DNA of 64,000 nucleotides from an uncultured Bacteroidota bacterium (GTDB taxonomy: Bacteria; Bacteroidota; Ignavibacteria; Ignavibacteriales; Ignavibacteriaceae): contig CAVZQU010000007.1 of the NCBI GenBank assembly GCA_963777515.1, forward strand, positions 736,763 through 800,762, in the 5' to 3' direction. The notes under the pieces are model-generated. The model had not been told where the DNA came from, did not search any database, and worked only from the letters and a program-made list of their open reading frames with translations. How positions within the stretch are numbered: the first letter of the stretch is position 1; the number at the start of each line of letters is the position of its first letter. The position numbers and the translations under genes are program-made. This document shows, piece by piece, positions 26,222-41,623 of the stretch.

Positions 26222-26237
26222 TAAATTAATCTTAATA

Positions 26238-27141
26238 TTATTTGCAAAGTGATAAAAGATATTCAACCGATGTAGTGGCTAAACTGATATTTGTATCTGC
26301 ACCGGAATAATAAATTTTTACTTCGCCATTATCTTCAATGATCCAGCCATTTGAAAAAACTACGTTTCCAACATCACCAATTCTTTCATAATCCTAATTC
26401 AGGTGAAAGGATTGGTTCTTTACTTCTGCCTTTAATAATCCATGGTTTTTCCAAATCGAGCAGCATAACACCAAGTTTATACAAAGAGCTAATACCAAAG
26501 CCTCGTACGCCATGATAAAGCATTAACCAGCCCTCTTTAGTTTTAATAGGCGGAGTTGAGTTGCCGATCTTATCATTTTCCCAGGTACCATGAATAGGTT
26601 CTGCAAACATTTCATGCTCTCCCCAATGAATTAAATCTTTACTCTTACTTATCCAAATATCATGTCTTTGATCAGCAGATGGGCGATCAACTTTCCAGTA
26701 ATATCCGTTTATCTTTTCAGGGAATAAAGAGCAATCTTTATTTGAAGGTAGCGAGATTAGGCCCAAAGGATTAAAGTTTTTAAAATCTTTTGTCTCGGTT
26801 AAAACAACTACCGGCATAAACTTAGAGTAACCTGTATAAGTCAAATAATATTTATCATCAATATGAACAACCCGTGAGTCTTCAATTCCCCATTCAACAT
26901 ATTTGAATATATTTTTATGATCTTCAGGAATTAAACATGGTTTTGGATCAACTTTAAATTTTATTCCATCCTCACTCCACGCTAATACAAAAGATGAACG
27001 CCCATTCGGCATTTCAACCCTGCAGACAAGCAAATATTTATTTTCAAATTTTGTCGCACCGGCATTAAAAATACTATTGACCTTAAAAGGTACATCTTCT
27101 TTTGTAATGATCGGATTTTTTCCATGTCTAATTATTTTCAT
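26238..27141 (-). pseudogene. GH130 beta-mannoside phosphorylase/hydrolase, one frameshift near 26390
   Basis: ORF 26386..27141 (NPIITKEDVPF, FNAGATKF, WGIEDSRVVHIDDKYYLTYTGYS). After a frame change the C-terminus continues as DYERIGDVGNVVFSNGWIIEDNGEVKIYYSGADT... to the stop at 26238-26240. Confidence 0.8.
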
Positions 27142-27189
27142 TTTACTCCCAATAAATTTTATTCAGTAACAACATTAAATTTAATTATC

Positions 27190-28008
27190 TTATTCCTTCA
27201 TCCCTGTAGATGCCATGCTTTGAATGAAATACTTTTGAAAAAACAAATATGCGATTACAATAGGCAGAGCTAATAATGTAGCTGAAGCAAGCTTAACACC
27301 AAGCTGGGATTCGGCTCTTCCGCCAACCACAAACAAAGTTACGAGTTGAGGCATAGTCATTAAGTGATCATCACGGATTACAATTAATGGCCACAATACT
27401 TCATTCCATGATGACATAAAAGTTATTATTCCAACCGTAATTATTGCAGGTAAAGAATTCGGCCAAAGTATGCGGAATAAAATTCTTAGTTCACCGCATC
27501 CATCAATTTTTGCGGCATCGATTAAGTCCTGCGGAATACTTTTAAAATACTGCCTGAACATTATTATGCTTAAAGCATTCATTAAGTATGGAATTATCAG
27601 CGCGTAATATGTATCAACCCATCCAAACTTCACCATAATTATATACTGTGGAATTAGAGTAATTTGGAAAGGAAGCGTCATCGTAAAAATTATAATATAA
27701 AAAATTAAATTTCTTCCTTTAAATTCCATCCTTGATAAAGCATAGCCGACCATTGAACCAAAAACTAAAACTCCTAAAGTTACCATCGACGCAACAAAAA
27801 TGCTGTTGACAAAGGATCTGCCAATTGGAACTTTGCTTAATAACTGTGTATAACTATTTAGTGAAACTGAAGACGGTAATAAATTCAAATTTGCAATTTC
27901 ATTTTCCGGTGCCAATGAAGCCATGATCATCCAATAAAAAGGATAAAGAAATGTTAGTCCTCCAATTAAAAGAATGATATAAGTAAATAACTTCTTAGCT
28001 AATTTCAT
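27190..28008 (-). CDS. carbohydrate ABC transporter permease (MalG-like)
   Basis: 6 TM helices. EAA loop DLIDAAKIDGCGELRILFRILWPNSLPA. Confidence 0.85.
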   Translation of the reverse strand: MKLAKKLFTYIILLIGGLTFLYPFYWMIMASLAPENEIANLNLLPSSVSLNSYTQLLSKVPIGRSFVNSIFVASMVTLGVLVFGSMVGYALSRMEFKGRNLIFYIIIFTMTLPFQITLIPQYIIMVKFGWVDTYYALIIPYLMNALSIIMFRQYFKSIPQDLIDAAKIDGCGELRILFRILWPNSLPAIITVGIITFMSSWNEVLWPLIVIRDDHLMTMPQLVTLFVVGGRAESQLGVKLASATLLALPIVIAYLFFQKYFIQSMASTGMKE

Positions 28009-28863
28009 TTTTCTTTTTCAATAAATTTCTTTTGAATCATTACCACACCTAAAATCAATGCTGCAAAAAATAATCCTAATGTAGCGGCATAACCCATGTG
28101 GTAGTAGAAAAATCCTTGCTTATAAATATACAGCACTGCTGAAAGTGTACTATTTAAAGGACCGCCGCCAGTCATTACATAAGGTTCAATAAAAAGTGAA
28201 AAACCACCGATAGTGGAAAGAATTACAACCATAAAAATTGTCGGGTTGATCATCGGGATTGTAATCTTAAAAAACTTTTGCCAATGAGTTGCACCTTCTA
28301 AATCTGCAGCTTCATAATAATGAACAGGTACTGTTTGAAGTCCAACTAAAAATAAAATAATATATAAACCAACATTTTTCCAGGTCGCCATAATTGCAAT
28401 AGAAGGCATTGCCACATTGGGGTCAACTAACCATCCGACTTTACTAAGCCCAACACTTGTCAGTATGCGATTAAATAATCCAGTATCAAATCCATAAAGC
28501 TGCTGCCACAAAATGGTGACTACAACTCCGGAAACAATAACCGGAAGAAAAAATGCTGCTCTAAAAAATCCCCGAAATTTTATTTTCTGATTTAATACTT
28601 CAGCAATAAAAAGTGCAATTATAATTTGGAGATGGAATGTGAATAAGTAAAAAGATAATTGTGTTCCAAAGCGATCTAAAAAAAAATTGATCGTTTACCA
28701 ATCTTTTAAAATTGCCTAAACCAATATATTCCATTGGAGAAATAATATTCCATTTGTGAAATGTTAAAACAATTGAGAAAATAACCGGGAAAGCTATGAA
28801 TACAAAAAAATGTACTATGTACGGCATTACAAATAAATATGGTACTAATTTTTTGTTTTTCAT
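28005..28863 (-). pseudogene. carbohydrate ABC transporter permease (MalF-like), one frameshift near 28625
   Basis: ORFs 28600..28863 and 28005..28511. The third frame reads through the gap as FHLQIIIALFIAEVLNQKIKFRGFFRAAFFLPVIVSGVVVTILWQQ. EAA loop YYEAADLEGATHWQKFFKITIP. Confidence 0.8.
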
Positions 28864-28869
28864 TTTGAG

Positions 28870-30178
28870 TTATTTAATGTAAAGCAAGTTAACAGCTTTC
28901 TCAGCATCGCTTAATGCTTCTTCAGGAGTTTTTTTACCATAAACAACACAAGCTTCATACTCCTGGGAAATAAGATCAAAAACTTCCTTTAGGTAAAGAA
29001 CTTCATCGGTACCTCTAACAAACTTTGATTGTTTTGCAAAAGGAATCATCTTCGGATTATCCTTAAAATATTCTTCAAAGTATGGATCGGTATCAAGATT
29101 TTTTCTTCTCGGCAATTGATTAGATATCTTTAAAAATTCCAAGTCACTCTTTTTTAGTAATCATCGTTTTGATGAATTGCCAGGCTAATTCAGGATCGGG
29201 ACAAGTTTTAAAGATTACTATATTCTTAGGATCACCATAAGTATATATTGGCCCTTTATGATTATCCGGAACTGGTAAATGAGTAAAATTATATTCAAAT
29301 CCTTTGGGTTTAAATTTTTCAGTATGAGCAATATCCCATGGCCCGGTAAACCGTGAAGCAATTATACCGGAAAGAAATACATCCTGTCTTTGATCGAGGC
29401 GTTCTCGTGAAAAATATTTTTTATCATAAAGAGTTTTTAAAAACCTAAATACTTCAAGTCCATATTTATTATTAAAATCAGCTTTATTATTTTTTATTAA
29501 TGGTGCTCCACCCGAAGCTCCTAAGTAAAGGGGATAAAAATCAAATAATCTTTGCCACCAAGTTGGGATAACCTCTCTGTAGCTGAACCAATGATCATAA
29601 TATCCATCTCCGTCTTCATCTTTAGTAAATTTTTTACAGGCATCAAAAAACTGACTGTAATCTGTTGGCGGATTTTCAAATCCAATTTCATCCACTATTT
29701 TTACATTATACAATAACATAATTGGATTTATTTTCCATGGGATTTGATATATATGTCCATCCTGCGAAGTTATTTCTTTTACAACTTCAGAATCGCATCT
29801 ATCATATATAAAATCAGTAAATCCTTTTAAAGTATCCAATGCAACAAGAACTCCAGCTTTTGCATAAGATTCTACGTCCCCTTGCCACATGTTTGAATAA
29901 ATATCAGGAGTAGTTTTTCCAACAACTGCTGCAAGAATTATCTCTTCACTGGATTGCCCTTCCGGTACAGGCTGAAATGATACTTTTTTCTCAGGATTAT
30001 TTTTATTCCAATCATCTACCATTTCTTTAGCAAACGCAATTTCTTCAGTATTATTGGATGACCAGTAAAGAATAGAATTAGTATTTCTTGACTCTTCGCT
30101 ATTGCACGAAATGCTACTAAATGAGACAAATAAAAATAAAATTGTTAAAGCAAAATATTTCATTGCCAGTTTCGCCAA
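28870..30178 (-). pseudogene. sugar ABC transporter extracellular solute-binding lipoprotein, one frameshift
   Basis: ORFs 29144..30178 (lipobox LFVSFSSISC) and 28870..29142. The break is at run T6 29150-29155; removing one base gives ...MITKKSDLEFLKISNQLP. Confidence 0.8.
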
Positions 30179-31714
30179 AGCATATCAATAGTGGGATAGG
30201 CAGGATGAGGAAATATTCCTCCTTTTTTTACCATATAAAGATCAATAGTCTTAGGATTATTGCTGTCTTCAACATAAATCTTGTTTAAGAGTTCTTCATT
30301 AATTTTTATTTTGATTTTTTGTTTGAGAGCAAGAACTTCATGAAGAATTTTTTTTGTTATTTCCATATCCTTTTTTTCGCTAGGCTTTGGAAGTTTGCTA
30401 GTTTTGTTTTCACTATTATCCAACTTTATTGAATTGATGATTTTATCTCTCATAACAGCGTAAACAATTTTATCTTTCCACCATTGTAATTGCTGTTTAA
30501 CAGTTTCCTTATTTTGATATCCTCTCGCATAAGCCTGTTTCATTAATAAATTATCGCGTACCATTTGCCAAATATTGCTTTCAATTGAAGCTGAAAATTT
30601 ATTAAAGTTCTCTTTATCTAATTTTATAAATTGACTTCTCATCCTATACCAATTTATAAAATCATCAATATTTAAAGTTGTATCTTTTAAAGCAACAAGT
30701 GGCAGCCTACCATACTCATTTTTTTTGATATTCAATTTTTTGATTTGTTCTTGAAGTCTGCTATCAAGATTCCATTCGTCATATTTTTCTTTTGATAATT
30801 CATAACCGCCTAAATAGGACCTCACAATTGCAAATGCATTCCCTTTTATTACAGGCATTTCCGATTTTAATAATTTCTTTACATAGATATCAGATTCATG
30901 ATCCATTTTTTCTTTTTTAATAACTTCCTCTGCATCAGCTTTATCCTCTGCCAAGCTCAGTTTGAGTAGTAACCATATTTTTCCAAATATCGTCAAGCTT
31001 AAAAATATAAAAGCCGTCACCAGCTTTTACTATTTTAGATATATCACCGGCTTTCATTGTATCAATAATATTAGATAGTTCGGGATTCTTATCCTTCAAT
31101 TTAAACTTGTCAATTTCCATTGATCTCTCATCTTTAAAAACTGAATCGTTTAATTGAAGAGTAAATAACGAATCGAATTTAATACCTTTTTTAAGTTCTG
31201 AAACAAAGAAAGAAAGTGAGTCTTCAGTCGGAGAAAATAGCCATTTAATATTATAATTAATTTGTTTCTCGGCTGAAGCCTTAGCTAATTCTTGCTTTGT
31301 AACTTTTATATTTTTTAGAATATCATCTTTGTACATTTCTCCGGTTGATAAATCGCCCTTAATTGCATCAAGTAATTCAGTGACATGAATTGAATCATCA
31401 AAACCTAAAGAGTAACCTTTTAAAGCAATTAACTTTTCGTTAATCATATAATCTAGAAAATGTTTTTTAGAATTTTTTATTTTCTTGGGAAATGCCGGTC
31501 CAAATTCGTAGCTTGCTAAAAATTCTCTGACAGTAATACTTCTGTCACCTACTTGCGCAATGATTTTATTTCCAATTTTATTGTTAAATGCCTCTTTAAA
31601 ATTTATAGCAGCTGAGTCTTCTTTATCTTTCGGATTTATGAAAGATGCAGCTATTAATATAGCCGGCAAAATCAAAAATAGCGTTCGAAAATTATATTTA
31701 TTTTTTACAAACAT
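30160..31714 (-). pseudogene. SurA/PpiC-like periplasmic chaperone (parvulin-type PPIase segment), one frameshift near 30950
   Basis: ORFs 30941..31714 (signal peptide, parvulin-like GDISKIVKAGDGFYIFKLDD) and 30160..31020. The family call rests on weak motif evidence. Confidence 0.45.
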
Positions 31715-31739
31715 TGTTCAAATCTAAACTAACTGCATT

Positions 31740-32777
31740 CTAAAATTTAATTCCTACGGAAAAAGAATGAACTCCATTAAGCCTTCCAAAATCACGATAG
31801 GCATAATCAAACCGGAATAGATCATTTGAAAAAAGGAATTTTGAATTTATCCCAACACCAAATGTTAAACCGCCTTCCTTATCCGTTAAGAATAGCGATT
31901 GATATCCACCTCTAATGGAAATAAAATCTTTGAAACAAAATTCAGCTCCTGTATTAACACTTTCATAATTATCATTCGGGTGCAATGCATCGACAGCTAA
32001 AGTCAATCTGTAATCATCTGTATTTAATGCATTGGTAGAAACTCCAATTCTAAATAGCAGCGGCAAATCCCATGAATCGAGATCAATTACATATGGTATT
32101 CTATCATTAGAGCCAAGTTTTGTAGGATCGACACTTTCATAAGTTCTTGTATCGCTGCCTGACAATTGCATCTTTGTACCAAAATTTGAAAGTGAAGCAC
32201 CAATAGTAAGTCCGCCAATTAAATCAGTTTGAAAGAGTGTCCCAACATCAATAGCAAAAGCGTTGCTAGACATATGCCAAATAGTTTCTTGAATATATTT
32301 TGCAGTAAAACCAATTGAAAATCTTTCTGTTAAACTTCTTGCATAAGAAACACCTACTGCAATATCTGAAGCACTAAAATATTCTCCGGTTCCTTCGGGC
32401 AGTTCAACTGTTCTAACTTTTTCATCACCCATTGATAATGAAGTAAAACTGAACCCAATGTTTCCTAACTCCCCTAAAGGGATAACTAATGCTGCATAAT
32501 CTAGACTTGTTGAGGCAAGCCAGTTTATATGATTAATTGAAACTTCATTTTGAGTAAGATTCGCTATCCCTGCAGAGTTCCAGTATAAAGCAGTTGCATC
32601 ATTTGCTAAACTGACAAAAGCTCCACCCATACCGCTGGATGGCCCTACACCAATTTCCAAAAAAGTACCTGCTGTGGTTCCGGCTTTGGAAACATTCTTA
32701 CTTCCATTTTGAGGAAATATCATTAGAGCAGGTACGCTAAATAAGAATGTTAACAATAGTAAAAATTTATTTTTCAT
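31740..32777 (-). CDS. PorV/PorQ-family outer-membrane beta-barrel
   Basis: N-terminus AGTTAGTFLEIGVGPSSGMGGAFVSLANDATALYWNSAGIANL matches the PorV-family signature. Alternating beta-strand pattern and C-terminal aromatic residue (SVGIKF). Confidence 0.7.
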   Translation of the reverse strand: MKNKFLLLLTFLFSVPALMIFPQNGSKNVSKAGTTAGTFLEIGVGPSSGMGGAFVSLANDATALYWNSAGIANLTQNEVSINHINWLASTSLDYAALVIPLGELGNIGFSFTSLSMGDEKVRTVELPEGTGEYFSASDIAVGVSYARSLTERFSIGFTAKYIQETIWHMSSNAFAIDVGTLFQTDLIGGLTIGASLSNFGTKMQLSGSDTRTYESVDPTKLGSNDRIPYVIDLDSWDLPLLFRIGVSTNALNTDDYRLTLAVDALHPNDNYESVNTGAEFCFKDFISIRGGYQSLFLTDKEGGLTFGVGINSKFLFSNDLFRFDYAYRDFGRLNGVHSFSVGIKF

Positions 32778-32806
32778 AAATACCTCAAATGATCGCAGAG
32801 ATTATC

Positions 32807-35800
32807 TTATTTAATAACTGCAAATTTTCCAATTTTTTCTCCCTCATCAGCTTGCACGTGAAATATGTAAACGCCAAAAGCTATATCCATTCCATCTTTT
32901 GAAACCAAATTCCATGGTTCTTGTCCATTGGTTAAATTGCTTTCATGATATATAGTCTGAACTAAGCTGCCGCTAATAGTATAGATTCTAATAGTACATT
33001 TAAGTGGAAGATGTATAAAATAAACTCTCCGTTCACCTCTTCCCACTTCAGTTGTTGAAGGTTCCCATGAAGCCGCTCCAGTATAAGGATTAGGAACAAC
33101 TGCAATATCATTCATATCTGATTTAACTTTATTCTTATTAAAGTATGCTGACTTTGTAGTGAATTGATAACTCTCTCCGGTCCTAAATGGTTTTGTAGTT
33201 AGAACTTTGAAGACATCTCCTACTTGTGGAGAGATTTGGTTCGCTTCAGCTATGGTTGTATCTTTAAATAAAGAAATAGACCATCCAACATGCAAGTTTG
33301 AAAAGCTGGTTGCTTTTTTATTAATTGAATCTCCGCAAACAACAAATATCGCATCTCCGTTAGTAAACAAATTATTATTATCATTATCTCTAAAGATGAA
33401 TTGAAAATGATCAATTCCGTCAGTTACATCTTTTATAATAATATTTGAAGGTACAGGCTGTGAAAAACTTGAAGACGGATATGAGGTGTCTCCTTTTCCA
33501 GGTTCAGTTAATGTTATTTCAAAATCAGCCGGTAATAAGATTTTTTTACTTTGATATGCAGGGGCATATCGAGAGTCAAATCCAACCGGAACCAGATAAT
33601 TACTATTCCCGACTATCCACCCTGTTTGACTTGAATTAACACCTACAGTTGTATCATTAACCAAATCAACAGAAAATCCGTCTACTACTGATGTTTGAAA
33701 TTCTTTACCATCAATTTGAGTTAAATGAATAAGTGTATCATTGTCAGAATAATTGATCAATCTGAATAGAGGATGGGGATTATCATGAAATATAGAATTG
33801 TCCACAAACTCAACTCTATAAGTATTTAAATCTTTTACCAGTTCAGGATTTAAAATCTGAATTTCTGCATACCCTGTCCCGGGCCCAGTTGAATCAAAAT
33901 TAGTTATATTCGGAGAAACGTACCCTGCCGCTGGTGCAGAAGGAGTAACAACAGCAGTATTTATATCTGTCTTTACTTTACCATTTATATCGACTTTAAT
34001 TATGCTTGTTGTTTCGGAAGGAGGAATACCTTCTATGGTTCCTTTAACATTAGTAGTCACAAAACCTTTATCATAAGCGACAACAGCATAATAATAAGTT
34101 TGTCCATTTTGAACTGTTGTATCTATAAAAGAATGTTTTAACCCGGTATCATCACCAAGGTTAAACATGGCGCCGTTTACTGCTATTGGATGAAGGCCTT
34201 TAACACCATCAATTAGATCATATTGAGCAATTGGTTTTCTGAAAGTAGTTTTGCCGTATGCATCAGTTATAACTTGGTCTTCTATAAAATTTGGCTCAGT
34301 TGAGCGGTAGATTCTATAACCTTCAAAATTATATCTTTGATAAAAAGCATCAAAAGTTTTTTCAGCTCTGTTATCCCAATAAATAGTTACTCTTTGATTT
34401 CCAGGAATAGCAGTTATAGTTGGTTTATCCGGCGGCTTAGCAAATCTATAATTAGCATTATAAATTGATTGAATTGTTTTCTTCCTTCGGAATAAATCGT
34501 CTTTGTCTATTCCATATAATAAGGACATTGAAAATCTTTGAGTTTCACCTGCTTCTTCCTGTTGTCCAGTTTGCATAGAATAAGTATTTCTTCCATTCAT
34601 ATGGAACAAATAACTAGAAAAGAAATTTCCTAAGTTTACACCTTCAAGAGTTTGGCCATGAGGAGACGGAAGTCCGGCAAGCGCTTTCCAGTTCGCTTCA
34701 TCATTATTTAAATCATAAGTGTGCACAGCAAATATTTGGAAACCGGTTAATCCAAGTTGATCTGATTCATCCTTATCAAGAATACCGAAATCAGGCTCGC
34801 CTTGTTCTGGTTTTCCATCACCTTCAGTTCCATTCGCATCCGGCCCCGCATAACCTTCATCAAAAGGCCCGATTCCATCTGTTCCAACATCATCATTCAA
34901 AGGTTCTCCTGAATCCCATTTACCATTTCCATTTACATCATTATAAGTTTTCCAATTTGCATTTTCATCTGCATCCCAATGCTGTTGCCATGAATAATTA
35001 TAAAATTCTTTAAATGTTGTTGTATCAATGGAAGGATTTCGTAAATATGGGTCATTTCCAGGACTTGTAATAAATGTAGTTGCAACATTATCTCTTTTTT
35101 CATCAGTTAAACCGTCATTATCATTATCTTTATTGTCATCAGGAATTCCGGGGCTTTCCAAAAATGCGTAGCCACTGTATCCAACCGGGCTCCAATGTCC
35201 GGGGCTTCCAAAAGAAACTGTTGACCATGCATAAGAAATATCCTGCACTTCGTTATAATCACCCGCGTTGTTAGAAGAGTTATCATGACCTCCAATTCCC
35301 CAGTCAACATACTGTGCAAAAAGTGATTTTGGATAATCAGTTGTAGACATATTAGTAATTTCATAATACCAAAAAATTACGTCTTGAGCTAAGACTTGAG
35401 ACCATTGAAATCCTCTACCCCTAACTTGCATTCCTAAACCACCCCGAGTTGGATCATCTGCATCCGGGAAGAAACCATATTTTGCAATATATTCTCTATC
35501 TTCATTATCATCGAAAACAAAGAATGATTCGAGATCAGCATTTTTTATTCCTTTACCGAAAAATCCGTCCCATTGTCCATCCCAATCTGAATTCCTATCC
35601 GGCCAGGTTGTAGGCCAGGTTGTAGGATCATCACTCCTGGCTACACTGCTCTGATATAAACTTGCATATCCGGGTAAAGCCCACCATCCATAGGTAACTT
35701 TTGTTTGGGGATCCGCCCTTGTATATTCATAGTAATTTGTTTCGAGCGGATGGAAAGTACTTCCATTATAGTTCACTTCCGATTGTACAATTACTGCAAC

Positions 35801-36049
35801 TCCATCAACATATGTATGCCCGGAGCCCTTTGGCCAAACACCACTTAAAGTGGGCTGGTTTTGCCAATCACCAATTTCTCCAAAATTATAGTAAACGGTT
35901 TGAACCAGGTTGCCATCCATAATTCCGGATTTTGTGTTGTTATGGTTTCCTTTATTTTTATCAATAATCCTTTGAGCAGATACATTTATTGAAAAAAATA
36001 AAATTAGTATTGATAAAATTATTTTAGAATAAATTCTACTTCTTTCCAC
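32807..36049 (-). CDS. 1080-aa secreted protein of unknown function with acidic Ca-binding-like loops and a T9SS-type C-terminal beta-sandwich
   Basis: Signal peptide ILSILILFFSINVSAQ. Asp-rich loops DNKDNDNDGLTDEKRDN and DVNGNGKWDSGEPLNDDVGTDG. C-terminus VVPNPYTG...IRIYTISGSLVQTI...GVYIFHVQADEGEKIGKFAVIK. Intact over 3.2 kb. Confidence 0.6.
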   Translation of the reverse strand: MERSRIYSKIILSILILFFSINVSAQRIIDKNKGNHNNTKSGIMDGNLVQTVYYNFGEIGDWQNQPTLSGVWPKGSGHTYVDGVAVIVQSEVNYNGSTFHPLETNYYEYTRADPQTKVTYGWWALPGYASLYQSSVARSDDPTTWPTTWPDRNSDWDGQWDGFFGKGIKNADLESFFVFDDNEDREYIAKYGFFPDADDPTRGGLGMQVRGRGFQWSQVLAQDVIFWYYEITNMSTTDYPKSLFAQYVDWGIGGHDNSSNNAGDYNEVQDISYAWSTVSFGSPGHWSPVGYSGYAFLESPGIPDDNKDNDNDGLTDEKRDNVATTFITSPGNDPYLRNPSIDTTTFKEFYNYSWQQHWDADENANWKTYNDVNGNGKWDSGEPLNDDVGTDGIGPFDEGYAGPDANGTEGDGKPEQGEPDFGILDKDESDQLGLTGFQIFAVHTYDLNNDEANWKALAGLPSPHGQTLEGVNLGNFFSSYLFHMNGRNTYSMQTGQQEEAGETQRFSMSLLYGIDKDDLFRRKKTIQSIYNANYRFAKPPDKPTITAIPGNQRVTIYWDNRAEKTFDAFYQRYNFEGYRIYRSTEPNFIEDQVITDAYGKTTFRKPIAQYDLIDGVKGLHPIAVNGAMFNLGDDTGLKHSFIDTTVQNGQTYYYAVVAYDKGFVTTNVKGTIEGIPPSETTSIIKVDINGKVKTDINTAVVTPSAPAAGYVSPNITNFDSTGPGTGYAEIQILNPELVKDLNTYRVEFVDNSIFHDNPHPLFRLINYSDNDTLIHLTQIDGKEFQTSVVDGFSVDLVNDTTVGVNSSQTGWIVGNSNYLVPVGFDSRYAPAYQSKKILLPADFEITLTEPGKGDTSYPSSSFSQPVPSNIIIKDVTDGIDHFQFIFRDNDNNNLFTNGDAIFVVCGDSINKKATSFSNLHVGWSISLFKDTTIAEANQISPQVGDVFKVLTTKPFRTGESYQFTTKSAYFNKNKVKSDMNDIAVVPNPYTGAASWEPSTTEVGRGERRVYFIHLPLKCTIRIYTISGSLVQTIYHESNLTNGQEPWNLVSKDGMDIAFGVYIFHVQADEGEKIGKFAVIK

Positions 36050-36073
36050 AGCTTTACCTTAAAAAATTCTTTG

Positions 36074-38812
36074 TTAAAAATCTATTGAAGCACCAAGAAT
36101 AATTTGCCTTGGCGAAGAGTAAAAGTCCGGTCTGGTAAAAAATTGTGCTAACGTGTTTACTCCACGCGGCGCAGATTGAGCCCTTGTTAATTCTAAAGTG
36201 TATCCAGCTCTGCCGGTATCTGTAAAAACATCGAGTTCATTTGCAGTATCAAATAAATTATAAACCTTTAAGAATACAGATAGGTTAATCCCGGTTATTG
36301 AGACATATTTTGTTAAGTATAAATCGACATTAAAAAATGTTGGTTTATTAGAACTATTCTCTAAACCTGTTCTTTGATTTTGAAAAGATGGAGTATATGG
36401 CAGTCCTGATCCTAATTTGCCAACAGCACTTGCAATAAAATTGTTTGGATCTCCAAGAGTAAGCGTAAAATTAAGAGAATGCCTTCTATCCCAATTTAAG
36501 GGGACTAATACTTTGTTTTGTTCAATCGGCGGTGAAGTTTGAGCTTTATCAAAAGCAGCGTTAGGATCAGATGCACTGCCTTTAGCAACTTGATATGTAT
36601 AATCTATACTTGCTCCTAATCCATTTATAAATCTTTTTTCTAGTGAAAGAGTTATGCCGCTTACAGAGCCATAATCTCTATTTACATATTTAGCAAACTT
36701 TTTGAAATTATTTTTTATATGAATTTCAACACCAAGAAGATTTCTAATATCTTTATAGTAAGTGGTAACATTTACTCCAAGTTCAGGAGTTAATTCCTGT
36801 TGTAACCCAAGTTCATACATTACCGTTTGCTGCGGTTTTAAATCCGGGTTTCCAATTACATTGCCTATTAGTTCAGGCAAATCACCACTAAGTGCAATTC
36901 TATAATTTGGATTCTTATATAAATATTCGAAAGGAGGAACTTGAAAAAAATGGCCATAAGAAATATGCACAGCACCATTCTCACTTATTGGATATGAAAT
37001 TCCAATCCTCGGGCTAATCTGTTTTTGTGAAGATGCTTTCTTAAAATATTGGGAAGGGAAAGGAGGAATTAAGTTATCTAAAACAGCAATGCTATCCGGA
37101 TTTAAAAGTACTTCTCCGTCCGGTTGAAAATAATCAAAACGCACACCAACGTTTACAATTAAATAATCTAATTCAATTTTATCTTGTAAATATCCTGCTA
37201 ATTGATAAGGGTGATTTTTATAAATATTATAATCAAATGATCCAGGCTGAGGAAGATGCGGGATATATCCATTAGATGGTTCAACAAGCACTTCAAAATC
37301 TGTATAATTCAAAGTATGAAATTTTGCTTCAATGCCGGTTTTAATTTCATTTGAATTATTAATCTGATCAGTAAAATCTAATTTTCCTGAATATGATACA
37401 GTATTATGATAAAACTGCCAGTTCTCAGTCCCGCCGGTTAAAAATGAGTTGCCGCTTACATCTCTCATTCTTTCAGGATTCACATATCTTGGATCCGGAT
37501 GAAGACCACTTATATTATCTCCCGAATGAAAGTTTACTGAATTTCCGGAAGCATTAAGCAGCGGATAAACATACTGCTGGAAATCGGAGTAATACATTGA
37601 ACCAAGGACATCAAGAAAAGCTGAGTTACTAAAAACATGAGTATAGCTGGCGCTTCCTAAAAAACTGGTTTGAAATTTTTTATAATCACCATCCGGATTA
37701 AGCTTAAATATATGATCATAATCTTTGTACTTATGGTCTTGATAAAGTCCTTCAAAGACAATTCCTTTACCGGAACCAACTTTGAATGCTAACTTCCCTT
37801 GAAGAGTTAACTGCCTTGAAAAATTCATTGGAACATTTGCACCATCTCCGGTTGCACCAACGTACCAATTTTTAGGATTATTATCTGAGAAATTAGAAGA
37901 ATCTGAAGGGTTGAACTCTCTCTTACCGTATAAATAACCATCATCACTTAAATATCTACCGGAAGCAAAGAATTTTACAAATCCATTTGTTCCGGGGATT
38001 GGACCACTTAAGTTACCTTGCAAATTATAAGTTCTTGCTGCATTAAATTTGCCCATATATAAATATAAATCGCTTGTTCTTTTCGTGGCATAATCACCTG
38101 AGTATGCCGAAAAAGCTCCATGATATTCGTCGCCGGCAATTTTTGTAATTTGGTTCACTACACCGGATAAAGCTTCACCGTATTCGGCGTTGAAAGTTCC
38201 GGTAATTACCTGCAATTCTTGAATACTGTTAACATCCGCCTGCATAGTTGATTGGCCGGAATAAACATCATTAACAGCAACCCCATCAATCATATATTTA
38301 ACTTCACCCAATCTGCCGCCTCTGAAATGTCCATCTACAACACCTGCTTGTAAGTTGATAACGGATTGAACATCTTCGACCGGAAGCATAGCGATATCTT
38401 TACCGCTAACATTTTCTTGGGTTGATGTCAGATCTTTCTGAACAAGTGGTTTTGATGCTGTTACTACAACATTATTAATTTCAACTGCTTCAACACCCAT
38501 TTGAAAATCTATCTTAGTGGTTTGATCGACAGAAATTTTAACATTATCAAATGTTATTGTTGAATATCCTACCAACGAAGCTTTTACTTTATATGTTCCA
38601 GGAGGAATATTTAGTATATAATAACTTCCGTCTAAATCTGTCGCGGAGCCATTATTAGTTCCTAATAATATGATGTTAACGCCAATTAAAGGATCTCCAG
38701 TTGCTTTGTCCGTAACTTTGCCTGCCAATTTTCCTGTTGTTCCGGCAAATAAAAATACTGGGAATAAAAGAAGAGATAAGCTTATAAAAATTAATTGTAA
38801 CTTTTTAATCAT
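36074..38812 (-). CDS. TonB-dependent receptor with N-terminal carboxypeptidase-regulatory-like domain
   Basis: GKLAGKVTDKATGDPLIGVNIILLGTNNGSATDLDGSYYILNIPPGTYKVKASLVGYS, then a plug (ISGKDIAMLP, QVITGTFNAEYG) and a long barrel ending ILGASIDF. Confidence 0.9.
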   Translation of the reverse strand: MIKKLQLIFISLSLLLFPVFLFAGTTGKLAGKVTDKATGDPLIGVNIILLGTNNGSATDLDGSYYILNIPPGTYKVKASLVGYSTITFDNVKISVDQTTKIDFQMGVEAVEINNVVVTASKPLVQKDLTSTQENVSGKDIAMLPVEDVQSVINLQAGVVDGHFRGGRLGEVKYMIDGVAVNDVYSGQSTMQADVNSIQELQVITGTFNAEYGEALSGVVNQITKIAGDEYHGAFSAYSGDYATKRTSDLYLYMGKFNAARTYNLQGNLSGPIPGTNGFVKFFASGRYLSDDGYLYGKREFNPSDSSNFSDNNPKNWYVGATGDGANVPMNFSRQLTLQGKLAFKVGSGKGIVFEGLYQDHKYKDYDHIFKLNPDGDYKKFQTSFLGSASYTHVFSNSAFLDVLGSMYYSDFQQYVYPLLNASGNSVNFHSGDNISGLHPDPRYVNPERMRDVSGNSFLTGGTENWQFYHNTVSYSGKLDFTDQINNSNEIKTGIEAKFHTLNYTDFEVLVEPSNGYIPHLPQPGSFDYNIYKNHPYQLAGYLQDKIELDYLIVNVGVRFDYFQPDGEVLLNPDSIAVLDNLIPPFPSQYFKKASSQKQISPRIGISYPISENGAVHISYGHFFQVPPFEYLYKNPNYRIALSGDLPELIGNVIGNPDLKPQQTVMYELGLQQELTPELGVNVTTYYKDIRNLLGVEIHIKNNFKKFAKYVNRDYGSVSGITLSLEKRFINGLGASIDYTYQVAKGSASDPNAAFDKAQTSPPIEQNKVLVPLNWDRRHSLNFTLTLGDPNNFIASAVGKLGSGLPYTPSFQNQRTGLENSSNKPTFFNVDLYLTKYVSITGINLSVFLKVYNLFDTANELDVFTDTGRAGYTLELTRAQSAPRGVNTLAQFFTRPDFYSSPRQIILGASIDF

Positions 38813-38998: not shown

Positions 38999-41623
38999 CT
39001 ATTTCATTAATATCATTTTCTTTGTTTGGATGTAATTACCAGCAACAACTCTGTAAATATAAATTCCACTGGAAACTTTGCTGCCGTAATTATTCTCTCC
39101 ATTCCATATCTTGTTGTAAACACCTGGAACTTGTTCGGAGCTTACAAGTGTTCTAACTTCTCTCCCAAGTATATCGTATACCTTAAGAGTAACGAATGCA
39201 CTTTGAGGTATAGAATAACTTATAGTAGTAGACGGATTGAACGGATTAGGATAATTCTGGGACACTTCAAATTTAGATGGTATAAGTTTACCATCAGTTA
39301 CATCTGTCGTGGATCCAACTTTTACTACTTCCAAATCATCAAAATAAATTGTTCCGGTAAACCTTGAGTAAATATGTATTCTTGCAGATAAAGCTATCGC
39401 TTTAGGATCATCAGGAACCGTTACATCTACATAATATTTTGTCCAATCAAATGATGTAACATTCGGAAATTGGAATACTAAATCCTGAGCGCCTATTTCA
39501 TCATAAGGTGAATTGTTCATATATCCGCTATGGAATATGGGGGTTATTCCTACAGACCATGTTCCAGGGTATTTTGCTGCTGAATCAGGAACAAGATTGC
39601 TTGCTTTTACCCACACACTAATTCTTATAACATCTCCTGCCTCAATATTAGTTAACGTACTGATATCGTGACTACTATTATTAGAAACTATTTTCTTCAT
39701 TCCCTGGTTATCTAAAGGATATCTTCTTGTTCCTATCCATCCATCATGCGGTTCTCTGTTAAACGGCAGTACAAGCTTCAATGAATGTGTGCCTGTATAT
39801 GCGGCTTCTGTACTTACTACTGTATTCTCAAACCCATTCGATAACTCGCCGTCATTGCCTCCTACCGGCGGCAGCCAGTAGTTCCAGCCTGTCGGCATAC
39901 CTACCTGCGTGTTCCAATCCTGGCCTGCCCAGCCTCCGTTTCTGCCTATCAGCATAAAGTCATCTGCCCATACTGTTCCGGTAGCATTCTTTCCCGCTAC
40001 AAATTTTATGATTGTCTTCCAGGAATCTTTTGGCAATATTGTTTCTCCTACTCCATTCGTATCTGCCATCCAACCGCTGCTTGTGGCTGTACTTTGATCT
40101 ATTGGCATCTTTGTCTCGCCTATCAGCGCTCCGGCACTGTCATAAAAACTATACGATATCCACCATCTCTCATCATCATTTGCCGGATTTGTGTTTACAT
40201 TCATTGTCTTTACATACGCACCTATCTTTATATCTACATCTTTGTAATTCTGTGGTGACCATAAGTCCGTCATGTTCTCTGATATCCAGCTGGCTGAATC
40301 TCCTACGGCTGTCTTCTCTATTTTCAATGAATGGCCCATTGACCTGTATTCATCCGTAGCCCAGCTTAAACTGTTCTCGCCCGGATTATTGCCCATCGTC
40401 CAATATGATGGTAAATTCCCTTCAAAACTACCTACACCGCTTATCTGTGGGATATCCAGTTTTTCTACATTTAATTCATCAAAATATATTGTTCCCGTAA
40501 ATCTTGAATATATATGTATCCTTGCTGAGAATGCTGTTGCTTTAGGATCATCCGGTACTGTTACATCTACGTAATATTTCGTCCACCCGAATGATGTTAC
40601 ACTTGGAAATTGGAATACTAAATCTTGTGCACCTATTTCATCATAAGGTGAATTGTTCATATACCCGCTATGGAATATGGGGGTTATTCCTACAGACCAT
40701 GTTCCCGGGTATTTTGCTGCTGAATCCGGTACTAAATCACTGGCTTTTATCCATACACTTACACGCAGCACATCGCCGGCTTTTATGTTTTGATCTATAC
40801 TATTCAATGGGGCTCTTCTTGTTCCTATCCATCCATCATGCGGTTCTCTGTTAAACGGCAGTACAAGCTTCAATGAATGTGTGCCTGTATATGCGGCTTC
40901 TGTACTTACTACTGTATTCTCAAACCCATTCGATAACTCGCCGTCATTGCCTCCTACCGGTGGCAGCCAGTAGTTCCAGCCTGTCGGCATACCTACCTGC
41001 GTGTTCCAATCCTGGCCTGCCCAGCCTCCGTTTCTGCCTATCAGCATAAAGTCATCTGCCCATACTGTTCCGGTAGCATTCTTTCCCGCTACAAATTTTA
41101 TGATTGTCTTCCAGGAATCTTTTGGCAATATTGTTTCTCCTACTCCATTCGTATCTGCCATCCAACCGCTGCTTGTGGCTGTACTTTGATCTATAGGCAT
41201 CTTTGTCTCGCCTATCAGCGCTCCGGCACTGTCATAAAAACTATACGATATCCACCATCTCTCATCATCATTTGCCGGATTTGTGTTTACATTCATTGTC
41301 TTTACATACGCACCTATCTTTATATCTACATCTTTGTAATTCTGTGGTGACCATAAGTCCGTCATGTTCTCTGATATCCAGCTGGCTGAATCCCCTACGG
41401 CTGTCTTCTCTATTTTCAATGAATGGCCCATTGACCTGTATTCATCCGTAGCCCAGCTTAAACTGTTCTCGCCCGGATTATTGCCCATCGTCCAATATGA
41501 TGGTAAATTCCCTTCAAAACTGCCGTTCTCATTTATTCCACTTTGACCAAACAAAAAATTTGGCGTCAGTGCTAACAAAATAAGCCACAGCCATATAAAA
41601 GATCTGTTAGAAAAATTTCTCAT
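38999..41623 (-). CDS. T9SS-sorted surface protein with two tandem roughly 364-aa CBM-like (jelly-roll) modules
   Basis: Signal peptide. The module starting NGSFEGNLPSYWTMGNN occurs twice. CTD motif QNYPNPFNPSTTISYSIP...GIYIYRVVAGNYIQTKKMILMK. The carbohydrate-binding assignment rests only on the NG.FE...W motif and the locus context. Confidence 0.75.
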   Translation of the reverse strand: MRNFSNRSFIWLWLILLALTPNFLFGQSGINENGSFEGNLPSYWTMGNNPGENSLSWATDEYRSMGHSLKIEKTAVGDSASWISENMTDLWSPQNYKDVDIKIGAYVKTMNVNTNPANDDERWWISYSFYDSAGALIGETKMPIDQSTATSSGWMADTNGVGETILPKDSWKTIIKFVAGKNATGTVWADDFMLIGRNGGWAGQDWNTQVGMPTGWNYWLPPVGGNDGELSNGFENTVVSTEAAYTGTHSLKLVLPFNREPHDGWIGTRRAPLNSIDQNIKAGDVLRVSVWIKASDLVPDSAAKYPGTWSVGITPIFHSGYMNNSPYDEIGAQDLVFQFPSVTSFGWTKYYVDVTVPDDPKATAFSARIHIYSRFTGTIYFDELNVEKLDIPQISGVGSFEGNLPSYWTMGNNPGENSLSWATDEYRSMGHSLKIEKTAVGDSASWISENMTDLWSPQNYKDVDIKIGAYVKTMNVNTNPANDDERWWISYSFYDSAGALIGETKMPIDQSTATSSGWMADTNGVGETILPKDSWKTIIKFVAGKNATGTVWADDFMLIGRNGGWAGQDWNTQVGMPTGWNYWLPPVGGNDGELSNGFENTVVSTEAAYTGTHSLKLVLPFNREPHDGWIGTRRYPLDNQGMKKIVSNNSSHDISTLTNIEAGDVIRISVWVKASNLVPDSAAKYPGTWSVGITPIFHSGYMNNSPYDEIGAQDLVFQFPNVTSFDWTKYYVDVTVPDDPKAIALSARIHIYSRFTGTIYFDDLEVVKVGSTTDVTDGKLIPSKFEVSQNYPNPFNPSTTISYSIPQSAFVTLKVYDILGREVRTLVSSEQVPGVYNKIWNGENNYGSKVSSGIYIYRVVAGNYIQTKKMILMK
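39293..41524 (-). repeat. intragenic tandem duplication, period 1092 bp, with near-identical cores 39722-40430 and 40814-41522
   Basis: Identical antisense ORFs 39909..40097 and 41001..41189 in the ORF track are offset by exactly 1092 bp. I found only 3 differences in the roughly 709-bp cores, all synonymous. The remaining third of each unit is clearly diverged, and the downstream copy carries a 16-aa insertion. Confidence 0.9.

What the first reader, a model, noticed from the sequence alone, without database searches (positions are those of the whole stretch)
30160..38812. Four-gene outer-membrane cassette: TonB-dependent receptor, 1080-aa unknown protein, PorV-like barrel and SurA-like chaperone
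In Bacteroidota PULs a SusD lipoprotein follows the receptor. Here the receptor (912 aa, CarboxypepD_reg N-domain) is followed 25 bp later by a 1080-aa secreted protein. That protein has Asp-rich Ca-binding-like loops and a T9SS-like C-terminal sandwich.

A PorV/PorQ-family barrel follows (N-terminus AGTTAGTFLEIGVGPSS.MGGAFVSLANDATALYWN), and then a parvulin/SurA-like periplasmic protein.

PorV is known as the shuttle or outer-membrane partner for T9SS cargo. A dedicated PorV-like paralog inside a nutrient-uptake operon suggests the 1080-aa protein is held at the surface by this barrel, as a non-SusD glycan-capture partner of the receptor.

I am not aware of a characterised system of this composition.

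The three large genes are fully intact, although neighbouring genes carry frameshifts.
Basis: inference. Interest (0 to 1): 0.65.

Follow-up and report, generated by a model that had tools for sequence, protein, structure and literature searches.

The report
SusD-less glycan uptake module using PorV-like barrel
A TonB-dependent outer-membrane transporter, an uncharacterised 1080-residue surface protein with a secretion-tail domain and a dedicated PorV-like barrel form a three-gene unit that is conserved next to sugar-degrading genes in several bacterial phyla lacking SusD, so it may be their counterpart of the Bacteroidota SusC/SusD sugar-import machine.

Summary
The four genes are at the stated coordinates, on the minus strand. 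They are a 912-aa TonB-dependent receptor, a 1080-aa protein with no family assignment, a PorV/PorQ-family barrel and a parvulin/SurA-like protein. The last is split by a +1 frameshift in this window. The organism is an Ignavibacteriota relative, not Bacteroidota.

The cassette sits in a 13-gene locus with a LacI regulator that looks mannoside-related. It also encodes a T9SS-tailed repeat protein, an ABC importer, GH130 and GH2.

The receptor, 1080-aa protein and barrel form a conserved core:
- In 80 Ignavibacteria genomes the receptor is adjacent in 71 of 73 testable loci and the barrel in 74 of 76.
- In 32 of 32 diverse metagenome loci with full flanks, both lie nearby on the same strand.
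- The triad also occurs in Calditrichota, KSB1 and Marinimicrobia, beside changing enzyme sets (GH130/GH2, GH94, GH16/GH3, GH26).
- Two modules can share one contig, so these barrels come as paralogs.

The SurA-like gene is an Ignavibacteria-only addition.

The 1080-aa family is large and unnamed, and its model has no solved-structure match. Its most conserved part is a variant T9SS type-A C-terminal domain.

My best reading is a SusD-less, T9SS-dependent TonB-transporter partner tethered by a cognate carrier barrel. The physical complex is inferred, not shown. I found no published description.

The parts
42708..43727 (-). LacI-family transcriptional regulator, first gene of the conserved locus
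   Evidence: Pfam LacI + Peripla_BP_1/3. Syntenic in Ignavibacteria loci. LacI also flanks distant modules L083, L085, L086 and L087.
41675..42697 (-). Zn-dependent alcohol/polyol dehydrogenase-like gene
   Evidence: Pfam ADH_N + ADH_zinc_N. Syntenic in many Ignavibacteria loci.
38999..41623 (-). 874-aa secreted protein with a canonical T9SS type-A C-terminal domain and two ~1.1-kb internal repeats; candidate surface glycan-binding protein
   Evidence: Por_Secre_tail / TIGR04183 4e-10 / FlgD_ig. Repeats are 98% and 86% identical. Orthologs are 855-1251 aa. Equivalent genes in distant modules carry CBM9. The binding role is inferred.
36074..38812 (-). TonB-dependent receptor (912 aa): CarboxypepD_reg N-domain, plug, 22-strand-type barrel; not SusC/RagA
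   Evidence: Pfam. TIGR04056 matches only residues 28-153, 64.8 bits against a 368 cut-off. Adjacent to the 1080-aa gene in 71/73 genome loci. Present in 32/32 full-flank metagenome loci.
32807..36049 (-). 1080-aa uncharacterised protein. Signal peptide 1-25. Large beta-rich N-domain (~26-540) with DxDxDG-type Asp loops. FN3-like domain (~541-700). Variable beta-sandwich region (~720-960). Variant T9SS type-A-like C-terminal domain (~981-1080).
   Evidence: No Pfam, NCBIfam or PDB family. AF2 model pLDDT 89.7. Foldseek finds only FN3/Ig strings, PorZ and PorU, with TM<=0.09. Per-region conservation. CTD homology. Family size 4179 representatives.
31740..32777 (-). PorV/PorQ-family outer-membrane barrel (345 aa), dedicated paralog type
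   Evidence: NF033709 204.8 bits (cut-off 90). PorV, PorQ and PorV2 equivalogs score 73-83 bits against cut-offs of 220-325. Weak match to F. johnsoniae PorV 6h3i_F. Adjacent in 74/76 genome loci. Present in 32/32 metagenome loci.
30160..31714 (-). Parvulin/SurA-like periplasmic protein (~520 aa in orthologs), split here by a +1 insertion near 30950; an Ignavibacteria-specific accessory gene
   Evidence: Weak Rotamase / Rotamase_2 / SurA_N hits. Frameshift located. Next to the barrel in 71/73 Ignavibacteria loci. No homolog in L081-L091.
28870..30178 (-). ABC sugar-binding protein (SBP_bac_1/8), split by a +1 insertion near 29145
   Evidence: Present in 70/70 testable loci.
27190..28863 (-). 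Two ABC permeases (BPD_transp_1); the first is split by a +1 insertion near 28620
26241..27162 (-). GH130 beta-mannoside phosphorylase-family gene, frameshifted near 26415
   Evidence: Pfam Glyco_hydro_130. Frameshift.
24933..26272 (-). Conserved unknown protein (~454 aa in orthologs), two frameshifts here
   Evidence: No Pfam family. Genes of 468-482 aa without Pfam families sit at the same position in Calditrichota and KSB1 loci; their homology to this gene was not tested. Frameshifts.
22795..24958 (-). GH2 glycosidase (beta-mannosidase-like), frameshifted near 23976
   Evidence: Pfam Glyco_hydro_2_N2 / 2 / 2_C. The gene at the corresponding position in L082 carries Mannosidase_ig domains. 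Frameshift.

Best explanation
The receptor, the 1080-aa protein and the PorV-like barrel are the outer-membrane core of a SusD-less polysaccharide-utilisation-type locus.

Proposed sequence of events:
1. LacI de-represses the operon.
2. The 874-aa T9SS-tailed repeat protein, and in other versions T9SS-tailed glycosidases, work on the glycan at the surface.
3. The 1080-aa protein is exported by Sec. It crosses the outer membrane through the type IX translocon by means of its variant type-A C-terminal domain.
4. Instead of being cleaved and released, it stays bound through that domain to its cognate PorV-family carrier barrel. The barrel replaces the lipid anchor of SusD.
5. Its conserved N-terminal and FN3-like parts dock on the TonB-dependent transporter as an extracellular partner, acting as a lid or capture platform. 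Its variable beta-sandwich region (about residues 720-960) may supply ligand specificity.
6. Oligosaccharides pass through the transporter, which TonB energises.
7. The binding protein and ABC permeases take them up.
8. GH130 phosphorylase and GH2 glycosidase degrade them. In this locus they are most likely beta-mannosides.

The SurA/parvulin-like protein is a lineage-specific periplasmic helper.

Shown: gene content, domain families, the strict and phylum-spanning linkage of the three genes, their co-divergence, the glycan-catabolic context, the CTD homology and the paralogy of the modules.

Inferred: T9SS dependence, CTD retention on the barrel, contact with the transporter, and the ligand.
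For: Linkage in close relatives. In 80 Ignavibacteria genome loci the receptor is adjacent in 71/73, the barrel in 74/76 and the ABC binding protein is present in 70/70 testable cases.

Linkage in distant members.
- Members at 40-52% identity from Calditrichota, KSB1, Marinimicrobia and others keep the triad in 10 of 11 contexts. The eleventh retains a barrel remnant.
- In a metagenome sample, 32/32 loci with full flanks carry both partners on the same strand. Gene order is T-U-P in 27, with permutations in the rest.

The three genes evolve as a unit. Their pairwise identities co-vary across modules: Spearman 0.79 for U against the receptor, 0.57 for U against the barrel.

The context is glycan catabolism and it changes between modules.
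- Sets seen: GH130/GH2, GH94 with PF10091, GH26 with GH16, and GH16/GH3/GH5. LacI and ABC, SSF or MFS importers accompany them.
- Among 90 neighbour ORFs, 25 have Por_Secre_tail, 23 GH16, 12 Malectin and 6 GH3.
- No SusD family appeared in any protein scanned or any precomputed gene list.

The C-terminal domain.
- The C-terminal 100 residues are the most conserved part of the family: 65% identity against 18-30% for residues 750-930.
- They are homologous to canonical type-A CTDs: hhalign 95%, E=3e-8.
- Among the Foldseek matches are PorZ and PorU, both CTD proteins that keep their CTD and stay bound to PorQ and PorV (PMC10202324).

The barrel and module copy number.
- The barrel is a full-length PorV/PorQ-family member, but not a PorV, PorQ or PorV2 equivalog.
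- Two modules occur on single contigs (L084, L090).

Published precedent. Carrier barrels bind CTDs and can anchor their cargo, and cognate PorV-like barrels have been proposed to protect CTDs from cleavage (PMC10994853, PMC10202324). Non-SusD lids exist for non-SusC transporters in Bacteroides (bioRxiv 10.1101/2023.03.17.533168).
Against: - No direct evidence exists for any protein-protein contact, surface exposure, CTD retention or ligand binding.
- The N-terminal 500-residue domain is highly conserved across modules with different enzymes, and it has many invariant acidic and aromatic residues. A conserved catalytic or other generic activity is therefore not excluded.
- T9SS core genes are not in the window. 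Their presence in this genome was not tested, and the literature only says it is possible in Ignavibacteriae (PMC5837995).
- The CTD fails the curated TIGR04183 and PF18962 cut-offs. It also carries a roughly 13-residue insertion, so it may not be a T9SS signal at all.
- The upstream 874-aa protein also has a CTD and could be the barrel's real client.
- In this window the downstream importer and enzymes carry frameshifts. If these are real, the locus would be non-functional here.
- In some members, such as the Marinimicrobia locus L089, no glycosidase is nearby.
Confidence: 0.55

Rival explanations
1. The 1080-aa protein is an ordinary T9SS cargo: a surface glycan-binding protein, an adhesin, or an enzyme of a new family. 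It works independently of the transporter. The PorV-like barrel is only its dedicated carrier or anchor. The genes are co-located because they are co-regulated parts of the same utilisation locus.
For: - CTD homology.
- Carrier and anchor precedents (PMC10994853, PMC10202324).
- The N-domain has many invariant Asp, Glu and Trp residues, as enzymes and lectins do.
- Gene order is sometimes T-P-U or U-P-T. The barrel and the 1080-aa gene therefore always stay next to each other, while the receptor's position varies.
Against: - The receptor is present in 32/32 full-flank loci and co-diverges with the 1080-aa protein more tightly than the barrel does (rho 0.79 against 0.57).
- The conserved parts of the protein do not change with the enzyme set, which is unexpected for a substrate-specific enzyme or lectin.
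- No SusD or other partner for the receptor is encoded in these loci.
Confidence: 0.27
2. The TonB-dependent protein is not an importer. It is the exporter or assembly platform for the 1080-aa protein, as with Myxococcus Oar and the protease PopC. The PorV-like barrel is the surface anchor. The triad would then be a self-contained secretion and anchoring device, independent of a full T9SS.
For: - A TonB-dependent transporter is required for secretion of the protease PopC (PMC6434023).
- The triad is found in phyla where a complete T9SS has not been documented in what I read.
- The CTD is an atypical variant below the curated cut-offs.
- Some modules have no glycosidases nearby.
Against: - Most loci pair the triad with inner-membrane sugar importers, glycosidases and canonical Por_Secre_tail proteins. 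This implies an import route and a working T9SS in the same organisms.
- Passing a folded 1080-aa multidomain protein through a 22-strand barrel is mechanistically demanding.
Confidence: 0.07
3. The three genes are a housekeeping envelope-biogenesis or T9SS-core module. The barrel is the organism's general PorV and the large protein is a structural surface component. It merely sits beside a sugar operon.
For: - Conservation of the 1080-aa protein across Ignavibacteria is unusually high, 65-94% identity.
- A PPIase is a subunit of the T9SS translocon in Flavobacterium (PMC10994853), and a PPIase-like gene is in the cassette.
Against: - Paralogous modules with different enzyme sets occur in the same lineages and even on the same contig.
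- LacI regulators flank them.
- The barrel fails the PorV and PorQ equivalog models.
- The PPIase is absent outside Ignavibacteria.
Confidence: 0.05

Closest known systems
SusC/SusD (RagA/RagB) pairs of Bacteroidota polysaccharide utilisation loci
   Same: A TonB-dependent transporter with a CarboxypepD_reg-type N-domain is followed at once by a gene for a large exported protein. The pair sits in a regulated locus with surface binding proteins, glycosidases and an inner-membrane importer. The unit is modular and is re-used beside different enzyme sets.
   Different: - The transporter is not a SusC/RagA family member.
- The partner is unrelated to SusD, three times larger and not a lipoprotein. 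It carries a T9SS-like C-terminal domain.
- A third obligatory gene, a PorV-family barrel, has no counterpart in Sus systems.
- The lineages are Ignavibacteriota, Calditrichota, KSB1 and Marinimicrobia rather than Bacteroidota.
Alternative lipoprotein lids of non-SusC TonB-dependent transporters in Bacteroides (Price, Deutschbauer & Arkin, bioRxiv 10.1101/2023.03.17.533168)
   Same: [quoted passage not shown] They were recognised through conserved proximity.
   Different: Those lids are lipoproteins. [quoted passage not shown] Here the candidate partner has no lipobox, is about 1080 aa and comes with its own barrel.
Cognate T9SS carrier/anchor barrels: PorV-PorU, PorQ-PorZ, and PorP/SprF with type-B CTD cargo
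   Same: A PorV-family (FadL-like) barrel paired with one particular CTD-bearing protein, often encoded beside it. In the known cases the CTD is not cleaved and tethers the protein to the barrel (PMC10202324, PMC10994853). Foldseek lists PorZ and PorU among the matches.
   Different: - The known pairs serve secretion, attachment or gliding, not nutrient import, and none is linked to a TonB-dependent transporter.
- The barrel here is not a PorV, PorQ or PorV2 equivalog.
- The CTD is a distinct variant with a conserved insertion.
TonB-dependent-receptor carbohydrate utilisation (CUT-type) loci of Proteobacteria (e.g. Xanthomonas; PMC1790865)
   Same: A SusD-less locus with a TonB-dependent receptor.
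   Different: Those loci are not known, as far as I recall, to have a surface partner protein, a PorV-like barrel or a T9SS link. I saw only the abstract of the cited paper.
Oar, the TonB-dependent transporter needed for PopC secretion in Myxococcus (PMC6434023)
   Same: A TonB-dependent transporter functionally tied to one exported protein.
   Different: Oar is linked to export of a protease and has no PorV-like partner. Here the context is sugar import.

Membership tests
TonB-dependent receptor/transporter | Plug domain plus C-terminal TonB-dependent beta-barrel | tested here: met
   PF07715 Plug 24.7 bits (cut-off 23.9). PF00593 barrel 98.4 bits (cut-off 27).
TonB-dependent receptor/transporter | TonB box upstream of the plug | tested here: inconclusive
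   A 'NNVVVTASKP' stretch lies between the CarboxypepD_reg domain and the plug (read). It resembles the SusC-type box from memory. No model was run.
SusC/RagA family (TIGR04056) | Full-length match above the curated cut-off | tested here: not met
   64.8 bits against a 368.25 cut-off. Only residues 28-153 match, the N-terminal domain.
SusD/RagB partner (canonical PUL definition) | SusD-family lipoprotein gene adjacent to the transporter | tested here: not met
   The downstream gene has no Pfam family and no lipobox. No SusD family was found in the window proteins scanned or in the gene lists of 11 related loci.
PUL-like / TonB-receptor carbohydrate utilisation locus (broad sense) | Transporter co-located with regulator, CAZymes and an inner-membrane sugar importer | tested here: met
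   LacI, GH130, GH2, SBP and two permeases in the window. Equivalent sets occur in relatives.
PorV/PorQ family (NF033709) | Full-length match above cut-off | tested here: met
   204.8 bits against a cut-off of 90, profile positions 1-326 of 326. PF19572 PorV 31.7 bits against 27.
PorV proper (NF033710), PorQ (NF033711), PorV2 (NF052325) | Equivalog-level score | tested here: not met
   72.8 against 250, 83.3 against 220 and 74.2 against 325. Caveat: I assume these models were built mainly on Bacteroidota sequences.
T9SS type-A C-terminal sorting domain (TIGR04183 / PF18962) | HMM match above the curated cut-off | tested here: not met
   TIGR04183 16.7 bits against 23, E=0.005. No PF18962 hit. 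Diverse members give only weak FlgD_ig and CHU_C hits.
T9SS type-A C-terminal sorting domain (TIGR04183 / PF18962) | Homology of the beta-sandwich core to bona fide CTDs | tested here: met
   hhalign of 129 family C-termini against 68 canonical CTDs from the same loci: probability 95.1%, E=3.2e-8, 56 columns. The model shows a seven-strand C-terminal sandwich.
T9SS cargo | Organism encodes the T9SS core (SprA/Sov, PorK/L/M/N, PorU) | not tested
   No core gene is in the 64-kb window, and whole-genome scans were not possible. Canonical Por_Secre_tail proteins in the window imply a T9SS. The literature reports only possible occurrence in Ignavibacteriae (PMC5837995).
Parvulin PPIase / SurA-like chaperone | PPIC-type rotamase domain and SurA N-terminal domain above cut-off | tested here: inconclusive
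   Window N-fragment: PF00639 22.4 against 21.7, PF13145 26.4 against 27, SurA_N_2/3 16-17 against 27-28. Intact ortholog L001: 19.8 and 25.4 bits, both below cut-off.

The most novel reading that the evidence does not exclude
Non-Bacteroidota phyla of the FCB group (Ignavibacteriota, Calditrichota, KSB1, Marinimicrobia/SAR406, Fidelibacterota) import glycans through a previously unrecognised three-component outer-membrane machine. It consists of a TonB-dependent transporter, a roughly 1100-residue lid or capture protein with a new fold, and a PorV-type carrier barrel. [quoted passage not shown] This would be a lipoprotein-independent functional equivalent of SusCD. It would also be the first case of T9SS carrier barrels recruited into a nutrient-import complex.
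Probability: 0.4. Interest if true: 0.85.

Novelty: new variant of a known kind. Interest (0 to 1): 0.72.

Why it matters
SusC/SusD explains glycan capture in Bacteroidota. Its sister phyla are abundant in soils, sediments, hot springs and the dark ocean (Marinimicrobia), degrade polysaccharides and have no SusD.

A conserved, modular transporter / 1080-aa protein / PorV-like triad offers a concrete candidate for how they do it. The family has about 4200 representatives at 50% clustering, all unannotated, and sits beside laminarin-, mannan-, beta-glucan- and other glycan-degrading genes.

It would:
- give a genomic marker for finding utilisation loci outside Bacteroidota;
- link type IX secretion to nutrient import;
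- extend the role of PorV-family carrier barrels from secretion to stable assembly of an uptake complex;
- define a large protein family whose N-terminal domain has no match among solved structures.

Cultured relatives (Melioribacter, Ignavibacterium, Rosettibacter, Caldithrix) make it testable.

Tried and rejected
- **Sequence searches of the 1080-aa protein.** Pfam, NCBIfam and PDB sequences gave nothing, both as a single sequence and as a 50-sequence profile. The one exception was a weak CTD hit and a spurious low-complexity match to an HNH nuclease. Scanning 25 diverse members against Pfam gave only weak C-terminal hits.
- **First structure model.** The AlphaFold model from 50 close homologs was poor (pLDDT 54) for residues 20-700. 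I replaced it with a model from 129 diverse sequences.
- **Fold search.** Foldseek of both models against the PDB gave only chains of FN3/Ig domains, with TM<=0.09. The N-domain fold therefore stays unassigned. Sub-domains could not be searched separately.
- **Promoter and terminator scan.** It found fewer sigma-70-like sites than in shuffled sequence and is uninformative for this lineage.
- **Literature.** Searches on Ignavibacteria/PorV/TonB, Melioribacter PULs, T9SS outside Bacteroidota, Ignavibacteriota/SusD, "PorV-like", Melioribacteraceae/T9SS, Marinimicrobia and "PorV2" found no description of this module. The Caldithrix genome paper mentions only vitamin receptors.
- **Rejected: the intact state of the three large genes reflects selection amid pseudogenisation.** All seven breaks are single-base insertions in otherwise well-conserved genes. 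Urocanase elsewhere in the window is also split. The closest public relative, L008 (94% identical for the 1080-aa protein), shows split alignments in this locus, including in the three large genes. Sequencing or assembly error is the simpler reading, though it is not proven.
- **Rejected: the SurA-like gene is a core part of the module.** It is absent from all 11 distant loci.

Full report
**Observation**

The region holds four consecutive minus-strand genes.

- The receptor spans 36074-38812 and is 912 aa. It has CarboxypepD_reg/CarbopepD_reg_2, Plug and TonB_dep_Rec_b-barrel domains.
- It is not a SusC/RagA member. TIGR04056 scores 64.8 bits against a 368 cut-off, over the N-terminal domain only.
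- The next gene starts 24 nt downstream, at 36049 with GTG, and ends at 32807. It encodes 1080 aa with a Sec signal peptide (…SINVSA/QR) and no lipobox cysteine.
- That protein matches no Pfam family. Its only NCBIfam match is a sub-threshold hit of the last 70 residues to the T9SS type-A sorting domain.
- It has no sequence relatives among solved structures.
- The third gene, 31740-32777, encodes 345 aa. It is a full-length PorV/PorQ-family protein (NF033709, 2.5e-60). It scores far below the equivalog cut-offs of PorV, PorQ and PorV2. It matches Flavobacterium PorV only weakly.
- The fourth gene is two overlapping ORFs, 30941-31714 and 30160-31020. Relatives have a single ORF of 507-544 aa. 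A one-base insertion near 30950 splits it here. Its parvulin and SurA_N matches are marginal.

**Surroundings**

The cassette is the middle of a longer co-directional locus. In order, the genes are:

- a LacI regulator (42708-43727);
- a Zn-dehydrogenase (41675-42697);
- an 874-aa protein with a canonical T9SS C-terminal domain and two ~1.1-kb internal repeats (38999-41623);
- the four genes described above;
- a sugar-binding protein and two ABC permeases;
- GH130, a conserved unknown of about 454 aa, and a GH2 glycosidase.

The content points to beta-mannoside or manno-oligosaccharide use. That assignment is an inference from family names.

Every gene from the SurA-like gene to GH2, apart from the second permease, carries one or two +1 insertions relative to L001. 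That makes seven in 9 kb. The 12 kb from LacI to the barrel have none.

Urocanase at about 60.8 kb is also split. The closest public relative, L008 (94% identical for the 1080-aa protein), shows split alignments in this locus, including in the three large genes. I therefore read the frameshifts as probable sequence errors rather than decay, but I cannot prove it.

**Who has it**

- The 1080-aa protein has orthologs at 65-94% identity in more than 120 clusters. All are unnamed and come from Ignavibacteriales, Melioribacteraceae and similar MAGs.
- An exhaustive search of 50%-identity representatives found 4179 relatives at E<=1e-3 and 592 at E<=1e-30.
- Source names place the more distant members in Calditrichota, KSB1, Marinimicrobia/Neomarinimicrobiota, Fidelibacterota, Delongbacteria and 'FCB group' bins.
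- One Marinimicrobia member is indexed in 112 blocks of the collection, and its sources include TARA.

**Synteny**

Across 80 genome loci:

| Feature | Count |
|---|---|
| Receptor directly upstream | 71/73 testable |
| Barrel directly downstream | 74/76 |
| SurA-like gene next | 71/73 |
| Binding protein present | 70/70 |

The few misses include loci where frameshifts fragment the genes (L007, L008).

Eleven contexts of members only 40-52% identical keep the order receptor / 1080-aa protein / barrel in ten cases. The eleventh keeps a 54-residue barrel remnant.

None of these has a SurA-like homolog. One contig has an unrelated weak SurA_N gene near a second module.

A metagenome scan with a profile of distant members gave 80 more loci.

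- In all 32 with at least 4.2 kb on both sides, both a receptor and a PorV-like gene lie on the same strand within 4.5 kb.
- Gene order is T-U-P in 27, T-P-U in 3, U-P-T in 1, and one locus has an extra T-P pair.
- Two modules occur on one contig in L084 and L090.

Pairwise identities of the three proteins across ten modules co-vary: rho 0.79 for U against the receptor and 0.57 for U against the barrel.

The conserved unit is thus three genes, it evolves as a unit, and it exists as paralogs.

**Context varies with the module**

The enzyme sets seen beside the triad are:

- GH130/GH2 with an ABC importer (the window, L081, L082, L085);
- GH94 plus PF10091 glycoamylase-type enzymes (L083, L087);
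- GH26 plus GH16 (L086);
- GH16/GH3/GH5 with SSF symporters (L088);
- kinase and phosphoesterase genes (L084);
- no glycosidase nearby (L089).

I scanned 90 neighbouring ORFs from the metagenome loci. Of these, 25 have Por_Secre_tail, 23 GH16, 12 Malectin, 6 GH3, and several have CBM9, CBM48, SSF or MFS.

A T9SS-tailed protein usually precedes the receptor, sometimes with CBM9. No SusD appears anywhere. This is the logic of a polysaccharide utilisation locus with a different outer-membrane core.

**The 1080-aa protein**

With 129 diverse sequences, AlphaFold gives pLDDT 89.7 and pTM 0.82. The model shows:

- a large beta-rich N-terminal domain (about 26-540), interrupted by Asp-rich loops with invariant DxDxDG-type motifs;
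- an FN3-like domain (541-700);
- further beta-sandwiches (700-980);
- a C-terminal seven-strand sandwich.

Foldseek finds no global match, with TM<=0.09. It lists only FN3/Ig strings, an S-layer protein, and the T9SS surface proteins PorZ and PorU.

Among 111 distant members, conservation differs by region:

| Region | Identity to the window protein |
|---|---|
| C-terminal domain | 65% |
| FN3-like domain | 60% |
| First 275 residues of the N-domain | 53% |
| Residues 750-930 | 18-30% |

The C-terminal signature VVPNPY-x5-WE-x7-GRGxR-x-F-x-LP-x2-CTIRIYT…GKFAxIK is kept in every module.

A profile of these C-termini aligns to canonical type-A CTDs from the same loci with 95% probability and E=3e-8. 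It is therefore a variant T9SS-type domain carrying a conserved insertion.

**Mechanism**

Published work establishes the following.

- T9SS substrates bind through the CTD to the loops of a carrier barrel at the translocon.
- Type-A cargo uses PorV. Type-B cargo leaves on alternative carriers that then anchor it (PMC10994853).
- PorU and PorZ keep their CTDs and stay on PorV and PorQ.
- Cognate PorV-like barrels have been proposed to protect CTDs from cleavage (PMC10202324).

The simplest model that fits the data has four parts:

1. The 1080-aa protein is a T9SS cargo.
2. It remains tethered by its variant CTD to the barrel encoded beside it.
3. It works with the adjacent TonB-dependent transporter as its extracellular partner.
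4. The conserved scaffold provides docking, and the variable sandwiches provide specificity.

All of these steps are inferred. What is shown is the linkage, the co-divergence, the context and the domain homologies.

Rivals:

- The protein is an independent surface binder or enzyme that needs its own carrier.
- The transporter exports the protein, as Oar does for PopC (PMC6434023).
- The module is housekeeping. This is disfavoured by paralogy, LacI regulation and the changing enzyme sets.

**Comparison and novelty**

- The module works like SusCD but fails both SusC and SusD membership.
- It resembles the alternative lids proposed for Bacteroides transporters (bioRxiv 10.1101/2023.03.17.533168), but the candidate partner is not a lipoprotein.
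- It resembles the cognate carrier/cargo pairs of the T9SS, but none of those is tied to a transporter.
- Eight literature searches found no description. The library is incomplete, so this is absence of evidence only.

I classify it as a new variant of known kinds. It is built around an uncharacterised, very widespread protein family.

**Verdict**

Comparative evidence is strong that this is a dedicated, modular uptake-associated triad. The physical tethering and the partner role remain untested.
- The SurA-like gene is not part of the core.

Noticed in passing
window 38999-41623 (minus strand); loci L001-L080: The 874-aa T9SS-tailed protein upstream of the receptor contains two ~1.1-kb direct repeats, with 300-nt blocks 98% and 86% identical. 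Orthologs range from 855 to 1251 aa, apparently with two or three repeat units. Of 44 public genome contigs that stop short upstream, 37 end 2.9-6.9 kb upstream of the 1080-aa gene, about where this gene lies. The repeat probably breaks short-read assemblies, and the copy number here may be collapsed.
   Followed up: partly
window 22795-31714, and 60038-61727: Seven single-base insertions relative to L001 split the SurA-like gene, the binding protein, permease 1, GH130, the 454-aa unknown (twice) and GH2. Urocanase is also split, between 60038-60829 and 60774-61727. All mapped breaks are +1 insertions in otherwise well-conserved genes, several at short homopolymers. This suggests assembly error rather than decay.
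   Followed up: partly
window 52731-56201 (minus strand): A second possible cargo/barrel set. It comprises a 315-aa Por_Secre_tail protein (55254-56201), a 539-aa protein with no family (53620-55239) and a 260-aa DUF5723/TraF_2-like protein that looks truncated (52731-53513; profile positions 8-223 of 376).
   Followed up: no
window 12375-22449 (minus strand): A second carbohydrate cluster directly downstream of the locus. It has fragments resembling GH94/GDE_C, a 508-aa GH130-containing protein, a GT4 glycosyltransferase, a LamG protein with a T9SS tail, a PKD/Big_9 protein and an aldo-keto reductase. Several genes appear split.
   Followed up: no
window 24933-26272; L081 11570-12976; L082 10911-12359: An unknown protein of about 450-480 aa without any Pfam family sits next to the ABC permeases and GH130 in the Ignavibacteria loci (62 loci with matches to its two halves). 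Unannotated genes of similar size sit at the same position in the Calditrichota and KSB1 loci. It is a candidate missing enzyme of the mannoside pathway.
   Followed up: no
L030, L058, L065, L073; P0458: Contigs or proteins carrying this Ignavibacteria-type locus are labelled Acidobacteriota, Syntrophomonadaceae, Bacillota, Chitinophagales or Methanosarcinaceae in their MAG records. These are probably binning or labelling errors.
   Followed up: no
L090 1-13853; L112, L113, L115, L150; P0141 and relatives: Variants of the module exist. Some are tandem modules. Some have the gene order receptor-barrel-large protein. In Marinimicrobia-type loci, ~1600-aa versions of the large protein carry a Reg_prop (PF07494) propeller region.
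   Followed up: partly
window 49616-52104 (plus strand): An adjacent LptF/LptG pair (LPS export permeases) lies 6 kb from the locus. Apart from the DUF5723-like protein noted above, this is the only other envelope-biogenesis function recognised in the window. No T9SS core gene was found.
   Followed up: no
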